Shown here in pieces: positions 48,001 to 50,953 of a DNA stretch of 50,953 nt. The position numbers are program-made. Each line of letters opens with the position of its first letter. The first letter of the stretch is position 1. Source of the DNA: Escherichia phage Lys8385Vzw; the sequence record MT225100, one strand, 5' to 3'.

Positions 48001-50953
48001 CAAAAGGTGTTCAGTGGATTGCTGGTCTGCTTGCTGCATGGAGAGCTACCGCAGCATGAAGATGATAAAAATGGACTGGAAATTTTTGCTGGTCTGGCTG
48101 ATTCCGTTTTTATGGGTGGTTGCCCGGTTAATTACTGCTATTAAGAGGTAAAGATGTCAGACAAACTCATAATGCTGGCGAAGGGCCTTTGTGTAATCGT
48201 CGGTATTTCATTTTCACTAATGCTGGTTGCTCTTTTTCTTTCCATAACCTGGATGGCGTTGACTTCGGCAGGGCTGGTGGGGTGAGCATAAACCGAATGC
48301 TTTCCGCGTTTACCGTTATTCTGCTGGTGGTCTGTAGTGCGCTGTGGCTGGCAACAGACCATTACCGTGATAACGCCATCACCTACAAAGCGCAGCGCGA
48401 TAAAAAAGCCAGAGAGCTGGAGCTGGCAAACGCAACCATTACTGACATGCAGCAGCGCCAGCGTGATGTTGCTGCGCTTGATGCCAGATACTCAAGGGAA
48501 TTAGCCGATGCGAGAGCTGAAAATGAAACTCTGCGTGCTGATGTTGCCGCTGGTCGTAAGCGCCTGCGGATCAACGCCACCTGCTCCGGTACCGTGCGTG
48601 AAGCCACCGGCACCTCCGGAATGGATAATGCAACCGGCCCCCGACTGGCAGACACCGCTGAACGGGATTATTTCACCCTCAGAGAGCGGTTGATGACAAT
48701 GCAGAAGCAACTGGAAGGGGCGCAGGAATATATCCGCACTCAGTGCCTGAATTAACAGAGCCAGCTTAATCGCTGGCTTTTTCATATCTGAATTTCATCG
48801 CGCATCTCACGCGCATATCACATCCCCGAGCCTTTCAGAAAGTTGAGCCTGAGAACTGTCGTATATGGTGGCGACCATCTCGGGGCGGCTTTTCTGTGAG
48901 ACAGGCTCAATTTTCTGAAAGGTAAGACGCTATGAACTATCCGACGATTGTTAACGGTATTGATTTCCGCGATCTTGTTTTTGTGACAGGCAACGAGCCG
49001 GTGACGGATACCCGAAAGGTTGCCGTAGCATTTGGCAAAGAACACAAAGATGTATTGCGGAAAACAAGAGCCGTTGTTCAACAATGCTCAAAAGAATTTG
49101 CAGAGCGCAATTTTGCGCTTTGCTATGAAAACAATGAGTTACAGAACGGTAAACCCCAGCCCATATATCGAATGACAAAAGACGGTTGGACGATGTTGGT
49201 ATTTGGTTTTACGGGGAAAGCTGCTATGACCTTTAAGGAAGCGTACATTCAGGCTTTCAACTGGATGGCTGAGCTTATTCAGCAAGGTCTGGCGAATCTG
49301 GAGGCGGAGCGCAACGCTGTAATGCTGGAGTACATGAAAGAGAAAGATGTCGCCAGTATGTCAGGTCGTTTGCTCAATCGCTGGGGCAGGGTGAAGAAGC
49401 CTCAGTTGCTGGCAAGGCTGGACAGGCTGGAGCAGCAGGGGCAGATTGCGTTACCCGGATTTGATAAAGGCATTTCAGCCTGACATAGCCATGCGCCGTA
49501 TCGTCGCCGTATCGTCGCCGTATCCCCGCATTAACAGAGACCGCAGCCCGACAGGGAGACTCCTCTACGAGAGTGTGCGGGATAATCAAAAACGATACAC
49601 ACCGGGGTTTACCGCGTTAACGGAGCGCGGCGTTGTCCCTCATGGTCGCTGGTCCGGTGCGATGGTGGAAGAAACCGGACGATGTGTTACCTCGCAAGCT
49701 CTGTGATGTCATGTGTCTGATTTGTGATTTAAGTCGGATAATTGTCGTTGCCATTAAGCAGAGGATTGATGACCGACAGGGTGGCATTGTTAGAATAAGA
49801 CTTATTCTTATCTGTGCCGGGAATGAAAATGAAAAGAAATCTTCCGTTAATTATTTTGTTGTCTTCTCTGGTTATGGGCTGTACGCAACATAAAACAGAT
49901 ATGCCCCGACAGTTGGTTAAGGCATTACCACAATATCCGGCCTATGCAGCGGCAAATTATATAAAGGGACGGGTTGATGTGAAGTTTGATATTGGTGCTG
50001 ATGGTACTGTCACCCGAATTGAGTTTATCCGTTCAGAGCCGCACCATTTGTTTGATGAGCAGGTTGTAAAGGCGATGGCAAAATGGCGATTTGAGAAGGA
50101 CAGGCCGTGTAAAGGCGTGAAGAAAACGTTTATCTTTAGTCCTTCTGCACCCTGATTATTTCATCAGAAATTAATTATCACTCTGTTGTTATTCTGTACA
50201 TCCCGGCAGGGTAAGTCTTGTTCCGTCGGATATGAAGATGAAATATTGTTGGAGGACAGTGGGTACCTGCTCCTGTAACCGAACGTTCATTTCTCGTTAT
50301 TTGTCATGCTGGCCGGGCGCAGATGCGTTGCATCTGTTGCCAGCCTTCTCCTGCAGGCTTCAATAACCCACGCTGAAAAGTTACCGGACCCTTTATGCTC
50401 AAGGGCTATGTTGATTTGTTCAATTATGTGATTGGGGAAACGGATATTGCGGGTTGTGGTTCTGCGGGTCCGGTTTTTCGATGACATTTTCTTTCCTCTG
50501 GTGACAAGTTATATGACGGGGATTTTACATGGCTGAGCTTCGTACACTCCAGAGCAGAATCAAAACACTGAATACCCGACGGGTGAATATTCTGAAGGGG
50601 GAACAGCGTCGTGTCAGTGGCAGTGCCCGGGTTTCCCTCAAGCGTCATATCTGGCTGAGGGATGCCGGGCAGTGCTGTCTCTGTGGTCGTGTGGTTGACC
50701 TCTGTGACAGTGAACTCGATCACCGCATTGCACTTCAGTTCGGTGGTGGTAATGAGGAGACGAATCTCTGGACGCTCTGCACCGAATGCCATCGACAAAA
50801 GTCTGCTCGTGAAGCGGCGGGTGGTATGCCGGACCCGACGCTGCCGGAGGTGTCCGGAGGTCATGGCAGGGCAGACGATATCATCGGACTGTGACCCGCC
50901 CCGGGGGGGATCATCCGGCGAAAAAAACGATCGCTCCGGACACCGCCCCCCCT

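What the first reader, a model, noticed from the sequence alone, without database searches (positions are those of the whole stretch)
49785..50155. TonB C-terminal-domain lipoprotein behind a palindromic operator
ORF 49829-50155 has a lipoprotein signal (LVMGC lipobox) followed by a segment closely paralleling the TonB C-terminal domain. A near-perfect palindrome (agaataagacttattct, about 49792-49808) overlaps its likely promoter. A secreted TonB-C mimic could interfere with TonB-dependent receptors, giving superinfection exclusion against TonB-dependent phages or colicins, or altered iron uptake. This is notable next to Fur-regulated stx1.
Basis: partly seen in the sequence, partly recalled or inferred. 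Interest (0 to 1): 0.6.

Follow-up and report, generated by a model that had tools for sequence, protein, structure and literature searches.

The report
Iron-regulated TonB-domain lipoprotein on Stx1 phage
A Shiga-toxin phage carries a small add-on gene for an outer-membrane-anchored copy of only the receptor-docking end of the bacterial TonB protein, apparently switched on by iron starvation like the toxin itself; databases already label the gene, but no study of its function was found, and it may blunt TonB-dependent entry of phages and bacteriocins.

Summary
ORF 49829-50155 encodes a 108-aa lipoprotein (lipobox VMGC, Cys18) whose residues 26-104 are a complete TonB C-terminal domain. Support: Pfam 54.9 bits; 39% identity to E. 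coli TonB 153-231; model within 1.0-1.1 Å of TonB in its BtuB and FhuA complexes. It lacks TonB's membrane anchor and proline-rich spacer, so it cannot transduce energy. RefSeq already calls it "TonB family protein" (also in phage 21 and JLK-2012). About 30% of complete E. coli genomes carry an allele. I found no functional study.

New here: it belongs to an Enterobacterales family of ~110-aa lipoproteins. Prophage copies always lie between the spanin genes and terminase; other copies are chromosomal. In 14 of 19 loci a strong Fur box sits 9-45 nt before the start codon. It is a weaker Fur-type site (13/19), but ranks second only to the stx1 Fur box across the phage. The 43 nt around it are invariant in an allele whose coding sequence has diverged (dS 0.37).

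Best reading: an iron-regulated moron making an outer-membrane TonB-box decoy. The decoy and exclusion function is inferred and untested.

The parts
49682..49828 (+). Upstream region of the add-on (moron) cassette, from the point where homology with Stx phages lacking the gene stops to the start codon
   Evidence: Alignment with phage CP-1639 is near-identical up to about 49681 and unrelated afterwards. Many Stx phages match only 49600-49680.
49769..49796 (+). Sigma-70 promoter-like site: -35-like ATGACC (49769-74), 16-nt spacer, TG-extended -10 TGtTAGAAT (49788-96)
   Evidence: The consensus scan gives 9/12 with TG. TGnTAG(A/T)AT recurs at the same place upstream of relatives. The -35 is not conserved in the 88% allele. 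This is a consensus match only.
49792..49808 (.). Perfect 8-1-8 palindrome AGAATAAG A CTTATTCT, a candidate operator
   Evidence: Identified. It is unique in the window even with 3 mismatches allowed. It is identical in the 88%-aa allele L109 but half-deleted in the phage 21 allele.
49791..49812 (.). Fur-box-like element. Read on the minus strand, 49812-49794 is GATAAG AATAAG T CTTATT, the forward-forward-spacer-reverse hexamer layout of a Fur box
   Evidence: It matches the Fur consensus at 13/19 at 49794-49812. Only 1.8% of 100-nt windows of the phage reach that score. A matrix from 12 relatives' boxes scores 49791-49809 at 13.4 bits, rank 4 of about 102,000 positions, behind only stx1-promoter hits.
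49819..49823 (+). Shine-Dalgarno-like GGGAA, 5 nt before the ATG
   Evidence: Read directly from the sequence. It lies within the 43-nt block 49785-49827 that is invariant against L109.
49829..50155 (+). Coding sequence for the 108-aa TonB_C lipoprotein (stop codon included)
   Evidence: dN/dS is 0.17 against L109 and 0.12 against the phage 21 allele.
49829..49882 (+). Lipoprotein signal peptide and lipobox (residues 1-18, Cys18 acylation site)
   Evidence: The Cys is invariant in 40 homologues. The lipobox fits [LVIAS][MLSTVAN][GA]C. The +2 residue is S, T, A or V and never Asp.
49904..50140 (+). TonB C-terminal domain (residues 26-104): YP motif, aromatic core, beta3 edge strand
   Evidence: HMM and PDB matches. 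The AF2 model has domain pLDDT above 95. Foldseek gives 1u07 rmsd 1.1 Å, 2gsk_B TM 0.93 and 2grx_C TM 0.92.

Best explanation
Shown:
- The gene is an add-on (moron) cassette placed at the end of the lysis module of an Stx1a lambdoid phage.
- It encodes a lipoprotein made of a signal peptide with lipobox, a 7-residue tether and a complete TonB C-terminal domain.
- It has no TonB membrane anchor and no proline-rich spacer, so it cannot couple to ExbB/ExbD or the proton-motive force.
- It belongs to a conserved Enterobacterales family found both in prophages and in chromosomes. The family is under purifying selection and most members carry a Fur box over the promoter or 5' end.

Inferred:
1. [quoted passage not shown]
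2. In this phage the palindrome is a diverged Fur-type operator. The gene would then be expressed in lysogens under iron starvation, and also by Q-antiterminated late read-through, the same dual logic as stx1.
3. Held against the outer membrane, the domain binds exposed TonB boxes by beta-strand pairing, as TonB does, but without delivering energy. The targets would be TonB-dependent transporters and/or incoming group-B colicins.
4. This competes with TonB and damps TonB-dependent entry of phages, colicins and microcins. The damping would act exactly when iron starvation makes the cell display the most receptors.
For: Identity and architecture:
- Domain matches and lipobox.
- Model with 40-sequence alignment has pLDDT 86, and the domain superposes at 1.0-1.1 Å on TonB taken from the BtuB and FhuA complexes.
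- TonB Y163, P164, F180, G186, F202, W213, Y215(F) and F230 are conserved.
- Position Q160 is Leu here. Q160L in TonB still works and suppresses TonB-box mutants (PMC11658791).

Outer-membrane tethering:
- Cys is invariant and +2 is never Asp.
- The tether is 6-10 residues in 38 of 40 homologues.

The gene is functional:
- dN/dS is 0.12-0.17.
- 414 complete E. coli genomes carry this allele and about 1,200 more carry a ~74%-identical one.

Moron status: the insertion boundary lies near 49682.

Conserved placement: prophage copies sit after the spanin genes and before terminase in otherwise unrelated prophages of Klebsiella, Rahnella, Sodalis and an unidentified host.

Iron control:
- 14 of 19 loci from at least 7 divergent lineages have matches of 14/19 or better to the Fur consensus, ending 9-45 nt before the start.
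- Each such match is reached by no more than 1.8% of same-locus 100-nt windows.
- A matrix from these boxes ranks the stx1 Fur operator first in the window and the palindrome fourth of about 102,000 positions.
- The block 49785-49827 is 43/43 identical to an allele whose coding sequence has dS=0.37 and whose adjacent 12 nt differ at 8 positions.

Precedent for inhibition: overproduced periplasmic TonB domain inhibits iron import through TonB-dependent transporters (Howard et al. 2001, as summarised in PMC9841981).

Precedent for the strategy: the prophage or phage outer-membrane lipoproteins Cor and Llp inactivate FhuA from the periplasmic side (preprint 10.64898/2026.03.26.714494).
Against: - No binding, localisation, expression or phenotype data exist for any family member in the searchable literature.
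- The site in this phage matches the Fur consensus at only 13/19, with G instead of T at hexamer position 6.
- The widespread phage 21 allele has lost half of the site. Four other loci have no box.
- TonB Arg166 is Tyr in 38 of 40 members. From my own knowledge of the FhuA-TonB structure, Arg166 contacts the transporter. The partner or its affinity may therefore differ from TonB's.
- A Fur-induced inhibitor of iron uptake is paradoxical for the chromosomal copies. Fur-repressed genes usually help iron acquisition.
- No terminator was found after the gene.
- The promoter is only a consensus-level match.
Confidence: 0.4

Rival explanations
1. It is a positive accessory factor for iron uptake. 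The outer-membrane-tethered TonB domain would help rather than block TonB-dependent transport under iron starvation. It could dock TonB's own C-terminal domain by heterodimerisation. It could instead recruit periplasmic binding proteins next to the transporters. The phage would carry it as a fitness gene for iron-limited hosts.
For: - Fur boxes lie upstream of most members, including stand-alone chromosomal copies in Raoultella, Klebsiella, Serratia, Pantoea and Erwinia. This is the usual signature of iron-acquisition genes.
- The aromatic residues implicated in TonB C-terminal domain dimerisation are conserved (F202, W213, Y215/F, F230). Their role in dimerisation is from my own knowledge of the TonB literature.
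- The family-specific R166Y change suggests a partner surface different from TonB's.
Against: - No mechanism of this kind is documented.
- A domain that occupies TonB boxes or TonB without energy coupling is expected to compete. The only experimental precedent, soluble periplasmic TonB domain, is inhibitory.
- The conserved placement in phage late and lysis regions is not explained.
Confidence: 0.25
2. It is a lysis- or envelope-associated late protein. Its constant position just after the spanin genes would reflect a role at lysis, such as tethering outer membrane to peptidoglycan, modulating spanins or timing. Iron and TonB would be irrelevant.
For: - It lies on the same strand and immediately downstream of Rz/Rz1 or a DUF2514 spanin in five unrelated prophage backbones.
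- PHROG 1267, which it matches end to end (E=8e-43), is labelled 'Rz-like spanin'.
- No terminator separates it from the late operon.
Against: - The window already has a complete Rz (48189-48755, Pfam Phage_lysis) with an embedded Rz1-type lipoprotein ORF (48508-48693).
- The protein is a globular TonB domain, not a proline-rich o-spanin.
- Chromosomal members have no lysis genes nearby.
- Fur boxes argue for expression outside lysis.
- The end of the late lysis module is a classic moron slot. The bor homologue of phage 21 sits in the same region.
Confidence: 0.08
3. The palindrome is not a Fur site. It is either the operator of another dimeric regulator or a chance palindrome within a conserved promoter and leader. 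The gene would then be constitutive or expressed only late.
For: - The match to the Fur consensus is only 13/19, and 8/14 when centred on the 7-1-7 core (and direct reading).
- Perfect 8-nt-arm palindromes are not rare in the window: 6 against about 3 expected.
- The phage 21 allele, present in about 1,200 E. coli genomes, does without the right arm.
- The RNA hairpin it could form is modest (z=-2.0) and lacks a U-tract.
Against: - It lies at the same distance from the start codon as canonical Fur boxes in relatives.
- It ranks fourth of about 102,000 positions with a relatives-derived matrix whose top hit is the stx1 Fur box.
- It sits in a 43-nt invariant block next to a highly diverged stretch.
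- No related sequence occurs in the immunity region or anywhere else in the phage.
Confidence: 0.35
4. It is a decaying fragment of host tonB picked up by the phage, as in the old annotation 'partial tonB-like'. It would have no function of its own.
For: Old annotations call it 'Partial tonB-like membrane protein' or 'TonB fragment'. It matches only the last ~85 residues of the TonB models.
Against: - dN/dS is 0.12-0.17.
- The lipobox Cys is invariant across 40 homologues that are 32-98% identical.
- It is closer to chromosomal lipoprotein homologues (about 44%) than to E. coli TonB (39%).
- The family carries its own signature motifs, YPYYA and SEPxHLFD.
- It is intact in hundreds of genomes.
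Confidence: 0.02

Closest known systems
TonB (E. coli P02929), C-terminal domain, residues about 150-239
   Same: Same fold: model rmsd 1.0-1.1 Å to 1u07, 2gsk_B and 2grx_C. Identity is 39% without gaps. The YP motif, the aromatic core and the beta3 edge strand that pairs with TonB boxes are all present.
   Different: It has no N-terminal transmembrane helix and no proline-rich spacer. Instead it has a lipoprotein signal peptide and a 7-residue tether. R166 is Tyr and Q160 is Leu. The last 8 residues of TonB are missing. It scores far below the TonB equivalog cut-offs (74 against 315 bits). It therefore cannot be an energy transducer.
Engineered periplasmic TonB fragments (Howard et al. 2001, J Bacteriol 183:5885; cited through PMC9841981)
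   Same: Both are a TonB periplasmic domain uncoupled from ExbB/ExbD and placed in the periplasm. The engineered version inhibits iron import through TonB-dependent transporters. This is the direct experimental precedent for the proposed decoy action.
   Different: Those fragments are artificial, soluble and overproduced. This one is a natural, lipid-anchored, diverged domain under its own regulated promoter. Its effect is untested.
Cor (phi80, N15, HK022, mEp167) and Llp (T5) superinfection-exclusion lipoproteins
   Same: All are small phage-encoded lipoproteins of the outer membrane's inner leaflet that act on a TonB-dependent transporter (FhuA) from the periplasmic side.
   Different: The fold and sequence are unrelated (Llp/Cor fold against TonB C-terminal domain). 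Cor and Llp protect against phages that use the same receptor as the carrier phage. This phage has a lambda-type J receptor-binding domain. No exclusion phenotype is known for the TonB_C lipoprotein.
Lambda Bor, Lom and other lambdoid late-region morons; stx1 itself
   Same: It is an accessory gene inserted in the late region with a promoter of its own, expressed from the prophage. Like stx1 it appears to combine an iron-responsive (Fur-type) promoter with late read-through.
   Different: Bor is transcribed against the late operon and is a serum-resistance lipoprotein. Fur control of this gene is inferred from sequence only.
Specialised TonB paralogues such as HasB and FusB
   Same: These are diverged TonB C-terminal domains dedicated to particular partners. 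FusB (7zc8, 9hi3) is among the structural matches.
   Different: HasB and FusB keep the membrane anchor and energy coupling, which this protein lacks.

Membership tests
TonB_C domain (Pfam PF03544 / TIGR01352) | Profile match above the curated threshold | tested here: met
   PF03544 scores 54.9 bits against a cut-off of 24.6. TIGR01352 scores 54.6 against 27.1.
TonB_C domain (Pfam PF03544 / TIGR01352) | Alpha/beta fold with a three-stranded sheet and an exposed beta3 edge | tested here: met
   The AF2 model has domain pLDDT above 95. Foldseek top hits are all TonB C-terminal domains, with rmsd 1.0-1.1 Å and TM 0.88-0.93.
TonB_C domain (Pfam PF03544 / TIGR01352) | Conserved YP motif and aromatic core (TonB Y163, P164, F180, F202, W213, Y215, F230) | tested here: met
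   All are present (Y215 is Phe) in the gapless alignment. They are invariant or nearly so across 40 homologues.
TonB energy transducer (NCBIfam PRK10819 equivalogs) | N-terminal transmembrane anchor that couples to ExbB/ExbD | tested here: not met
   The N-terminus is a cleavable lipoprotein signal peptide ending in VMGC. The models match only their positions about 152-240.
TonB energy transducer (NCBIfam PRK10819 equivalogs) | Proline-rich periplasm-spanning spacer | tested here: not met
   Only 7 residues separate Cys18 from the start of the domain.
TonB energy transducer (NCBIfam PRK10819 equivalogs) | Whole-protein score above the equivalog cut-off | tested here: not met
   The best score is 74.2 bits against a cut-off of 315.
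Bacterial lipoprotein routed to the outer membrane | Signal peptide with lipobox and invariant Cys | tested here: met
   The lipobox is VMGC. Cys is invariant in 40 homologues, and all their lipoboxes fit [LVIAS]x[GA]C.
Bacterial lipoprotein routed to the outer membrane | No Asp at +2 (the Lol avoidance signal); actual acylation and localisation | not testable with these tools
   The sequence rule is met: +2 is Thr here and S, T, A or V in all 40 homologues. Lipidation and fractionation need experiments.
Fur regulon (Fur-box operator) | 19-bp Fur box overlapping the promoter | tested here: inconclusive
   The match is 13/19 at 49794-49812, against 16/19 for the stx1 control. It ranks fourth of about 102,000 positions with the relatives-derived matrix. 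Relatives score 14-17/19 at the same position.
Fur regulon (Fur-box operator) | Fur binding and iron- or fur-dependent expression | not testable with these tools
   This needs a gel shift or footprint and reporter or RNA data.
Phage moron | Present or absent as a unit between conserved flanks in related phages | tested here: met
   Homology with CP-1639 and many Stx phages ends at about 49681. Only 14 of 50,697 phage records carry the gene. The right-hand boundary was not mapped.
Phage moron | Own promoter and own terminator | tested here: inconclusive
   There is an extended -10-like site within a 43-nt invariant block. No terminator-like site follows the gene.
Cor/Llp exclusion lipoproteins | Llp/Cor fold or sequence family | tested here: not met
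   All significant structural hits are TonB or TolA-type domains. There is no Pfam, PADLOC or other family hit.
Cor/Llp exclusion lipoproteins | Blocks infection through a TonB-dependent receptor | not testable with these tools
   This needs plating and adsorption assays.
Spanin (the PHROG 1267 label) | o-spanin (short proline-rich lipoprotein) or i-spanin (membrane-anchored coiled coil) paired with a partner | tested here: not met
   The protein is a globular TonB domain. The window has a separate Rz with embedded Rz1. Chromosomal family members have no lysis genes nearby.

The most novel reading that the evidence does not exclude
A natural, horizontally spread 'dominant-negative TonB'. It would be an outer-membrane-tethered TonB C-terminal domain under Fur control that captures TonB boxes of transporters and/or of incoming colicins and phage proteins. 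That would give lysogens, and some species chromosomally, broad tolerance to TonB-dependent phages, colicins and microcins exactly when iron starvation exposes the most receptors. It would be a new class of prophage-borne exclusion or defence factor. It would also be a second iron-regulated moron beside stx1 on the same phage.
Probability: 0.3. Interest if true: 0.8.

Novelty: new variant of a known kind. Interest (0 to 1): 0.55.

Why it matters
About 30% of complete E. coli genomes carry an allele of this gene. These include STEC, APEC O1 and Nissle 1917, and prophages of Klebsiella, Sodalis and Rahnella carry it too. Yet it has no assigned function beyond a domain label.

If it is an energy-uncoupled TonB-box binder, it would be a natural counterpart of the TonB-box and TonB-fragment inhibitors now explored as antibacterials. 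It would also be a new way for prophages to shape sensitivity to phages, colicins, microcins and siderophore-drug conjugates.

The recurrent Fur boxes give a concrete, cheap hypothesis for when it is made. They also show that this Stx1 phage probably carries two iron-responsive accessory genes. If the protein instead helps iron uptake, it would be a new component of the TonB system.

Tried and rejected
1. Single-sequence AF2 gave pLDDT 56. It was replaced by a run with a 40-sequence alignment.
2. I searched for the palindrome, or relatives with up to 3 mismatches, elsewhere in the phage, for example as CI/Cro operators. There were none, so it is not part of the immunity circuitry.
3. Terminator or RNA-element reading: the hairpin is weak with no U-tract, Rfam finds nothing there, and no terminator-like site is present.
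4. Self-exclusion via the phage's own receptor: J carries a lambda-type receptor-binding domain (PF12421, 51% identical to lambda J). FhuA-type phages (HK140, mEp213/234) match only the first third of the queried J C-terminal segment. No cor-like gene was seen among the ORFs checked.
5. Sakai Sp15, the Stx1 phage of O157, lacks the gene. It has a different packaging module.
6. Genome-contig scans with broad alignments failed for lack of a conserved stretch. A narrower alignment gave only 11 loci. The viral-contig scan returned only near-identical copies.
7. PADLOC gave no hit. BFVD gave no structural match with E of 0.001 or better.
8. Ten literature searches found no functional study. Howard et al. 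2001 (PMC99666) is not held, so it is cited through PMC9841981.
9. The 'Rz-like spanin' label of PHROG 1267 was considered and rejected.
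Full report
**1. What is in the sequence**

- The window is a complete, circularly permuted Stx1a lambdoid phage. It is 100% identical over the tested segments to Stx1a-converting phages LC744181-4.
- Gene order: terminase at 230-2451, Q at 40607-41401, stx1A/B at 41960-43195, nanS-p, holin/endolysin, an antirepressor, Rz/Rz1 at 48189-48755, a Rha-type gene at 48932-49483, an HNH gene at 50529-50894.
- The flagged ORF (49829-50155, + strand) encodes 108 aa: MKRNLPLIILLSSLVMGC|TQHKTDM-PRQLV....
- It has a standard lipoprotein signal peptide with Cys18.
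- The palindrome AGAATAAG-A-CTTATTCT lies at 49792-49808 and is perfect.
- It overlaps a TG-extended -10-like element (TGtTAGAAT, 49788-96).

**2. The protein is a TonB C-terminal domain and nothing else**

- Pfam TonB_C scores 54.9 bits against a cut-off of 24.6.
- TIGR01352 and five enterobacterial TonB models match, but only over their last ~85 positions and far below their whole-protein cut-offs.
- phmmer against the PDB finds E. coli and Salmonella TonB C-terminal domains at E about 1e-16, aligned without gaps to residues 26-104. Identity to E. coli TonB 153-231 is 31/79.
- With a 40-sequence alignment, AF2 gives pLDDT 86, and above 95 across the domain.
- Foldseek's best matches are 1u07 (rmsd 1.1 Å), TonB from the BtuB complex 2gsk_B (TM 0.93) and TonB from the FhuA complex 2grx_C (TM 0.92).
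- TonB Y163, P164, F180, G186, F202, W213, Y215(F) and F230 are kept.
- Q160 is Leu. Q160L is a functional TonB allele that suppresses TonB-box mutants (PMC11658791).
- R166 is Tyr.
- There is no transmembrane anchor and no proline-rich spacer. Seven residues separate the lipidated Cys from the domain.
- It is therefore a member of the TonB_C domain family but not a TonB.

**3. It is already annotated but not studied**

- RefSeq names it "TonB family protein" in phage JLK-2012 and in E. coli chromosomes.
- The phage 21 record calls its 72%-identical allele "TonB C-terminal domain protein". Older records say "partial tonB-like".
- 414 of 5,426 complete E. coli genomes carry this allele with its upstream region. 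About 1,200 more carry the ~74%-identical coding sequence, including APEC O1 and Nissle 1917.
- Ten full-text searches found no functional work. The phage 21 genome announcement does not discuss it.
- PHROG 1267 labels the family "Rz-like spanin", which I consider a mislabel (see section 7).

**4. A wider family**

- An exhaustive HMMER search and a profile search found ~107-133-aa homologues (32-56% identity). They occur in Raoultella, Klebsiella, Salmonella, Serratia, Pantoea, Erwinia, Rahnella, Shimwellia and Sodalis.
- Across 40 sequences the lipobox Cys is invariant and +2 is S, T, A or V, never Asp. The tether is 6-10 residues in 38 of them.
- The family has its own signatures (YPYYA, SEPxHLFD). 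Tyr replaces TonB R166 in 38 of 40.
- dN/dS is 0.17 against an 88% allele and 0.12 against the phage 21 allele. It is not a decaying tonB fragment.

Genomic context falls into two classes:
- Prophage copies always lie on the late strand between the spanin gene(s) and terminase, although the holins, endolysins and terminases are unrelated. Examples are Klebsiella L087, Rahnella L094, Sodalis L108, L096, phage 21 and this window.
- Other copies are stand-alone chromosomal genes. Raoultella has one next to lacZ-lacI, Serratia next to yeaH-yeaG-mipA, Erwinia L106 next to an apparent arabinose-utilisation locus. Pantoea and E. typographi L107 also have chromosomal copies.
- In this phage the cassette's left boundary is near 49682, where homology with Stx phages lacking the gene stops.

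**5. The palindrome and Fur**

- By itself the palindrome is not improbable. The window has 6 distinct comparable palindromes against about 3 expected. It has no relative elsewhere in the phage.
- I scanned 100 nt upstream of 19 family loci with the Fur consensus GATAATGATAATCATTATC.
- 14 loci score 14/19 or better, with the match ending 9-18 nt before the start codon (45 nt in Serratia).
- Examples: Sodalis 17/19; Pantoea, E. typographi and Klebsiella R390 16/19. L096 contains the exact 7-1-7 core TGATAATtATTATCA.
- Such scores occur in no more than 1.8% of 100-nt windows of the same loci.
- These loci represent at least seven lineages with 35-55% protein identity.
- The control, the stx1 Fur operator, scores 16/19 at 41841-41859.
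- The window's site scores 13/19 at 49794-49812, at the same distance from the start (16 nt). Only 1.8% of the phage's 100-nt windows reach that score.
- Read on the minus strand it is GATAAG-AATAAG-T-CTTATT. This is the forward-forward-spacer-reverse hexamer layout of a Fur box, with G for T at hexamer position 6.
- A matrix built only from 12 relatives' boxes ranks the stx1 operator first in the whole window. It ranks the palindrome-centred 19-mer 49791-49809 fourth of about 102,000 positions. Only stx1-promoter hits rank above it.
- Against the 88%-aa allele L109, the block 49785-49827 (the -10, palindrome and ribosome-binding site) has 0 differences in 43 nt. The preceding 12 nt have 8 differences, and the coding sequence has dS=0.37.
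- Counter-evidence: the phage 21 allele has a 13-nt deletion that removes the right arm. Four other loci lack any box.
- I conclude that Fur control is ancestral or recurrent in the family. The palindrome is most likely a diverged Fur-type operator (about 0.55). Binding is untested.

**6. How it most likely works**

Shown: the architecture, the fold, selection, moron status, the conserved placement and the Fur boxes in relatives.

Inferred:
- Sorting to the outer membrane, by the +2 rule.
- Expression in lysogens under iron limitation, plus late read-through from pR'. No terminator intervenes. This is the same dual logic as stx1.
- Binding of TonB boxes by beta-strand pairing without energy input, so that it competes with TonB.

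The direct precedent is that overproduced periplasmic TonB domain inhibits iron import through TonB-dependent transporters (Howard et al. 2001, via PMC9841981). The closest functional analogues are the phage outer-membrane lipoproteins Cor and Llp, which inactivate FhuA from the periplasm.

The phage's J protein has a lambda-type receptor-binding domain. Any exclusion would therefore act on other TonB-dependent phages, colicins and microcins, not on the phage itself.

**7. Rivals**

- *Helper of iron uptake (0.25).* A Fur-induced inhibitor of iron uptake is paradoxical for chromosomal copies, and the R166Y change hints at a different partner.
- *Lysis-associated role (0.08).* It is suggested by position and the PHROG label. 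It is contradicted by the separate complete Rz/Rz1, the globular fold, the chromosomal members and the Fur boxes.
- *Palindrome not a Fur site (0.35).*
- *Dead tonB fragment (0.02).*

**8. Verdict**

- The domain identity was already public knowledge.
- The family definition, the conserved prophage slot and the recurrent Fur boxes are new here, as far as the searched literature shows.
- The architecture is a new variant of a known kind, with no function study found.

Noticed in passing
window 41841-41859: The stx1 Fur operator (GAATATGATTATCATTTTC, 16/19 to the consensus) lies between Q and stx1A. It is the top hit in the whole window for a matrix built from the Fur boxes of the TonB_C-lipoprotein relatives. 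The phage may thus carry two iron-responsive accessory genes.
   Followed up: partly
window 43274-43548: Just downstream of stx1B, Rfam finds the sRNA STnc100 (43274-43487, +, 190.7 bits). It also finds the anti-GcvB sRNA AgvB on the opposite strand (43489-43548, 56.6 bits).
   Followed up: no
window 34602-34787: isrK (34602-34678) and a C4 antisense RNA (34700-34787) lie side by side inside or next to the ORF 34242-35387. This pairing looks like an RNA-controlled antirepressor module of the P1/P7 or Gifsy type (that comparison is from my own recall).
   Followed up: no
window 22620-23540 (-): An NleG-family type III effector ORF lies in the accessory region downstream of the tail-fibre gene. 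Nearby are Lom (19132-19731) and a collagen-repeat side tail fibre (19790-21109).
   Followed up: no
window 49494-49529: An 11-nt unit is tandemly repeated three times (CGCCGTATCGT...) directly after the Rha-type gene. The region is conserved in many lambdoid phages, including phage 21 and CP-1639.
   Followed up: no
window 49956-49983 (-): A near-consensus sigma-70 promoter-like site (TTCACA-16-TATAAT, 11/12) lies on the antisense strand inside the TonB_C coding sequence.
   Followed up: no
window 50287-50487 (-): A convergent 66-aa DUF3950 (YlcI/YnfO family) gene lies between the TonB_C gene and the HNH-terminase module. The same arrangement is seen in JLK-2012 and L109.
   Followed up: no
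window 32-49: An 18-bp perfect palindrome, CAGTTAACATGTTAACTG, lies upstream of the small terminase gene and may be related to packaging.
   Followed up: no
PHROG 1267 / BFVD: PHROG 1267, which this protein matches end to end, carries the functional label 'Rz-like spanin' although its members are TonB_C lipoproteins. BFVD contains no structural match to the model with E of 0.001 or better.
   Followed up: partly
L084 5425-5853; L103 3376-3804: In Raoultella and Klebsiella chromosomes the TonB_C lipoprotein gene is preceded by a 142-aa gene. In L084 that gene has a weak Rick_17kDa_Anti (glycine-zipper) Pfam hit. Possible co-transcription or a shared function was not examined.
   Followed up: no
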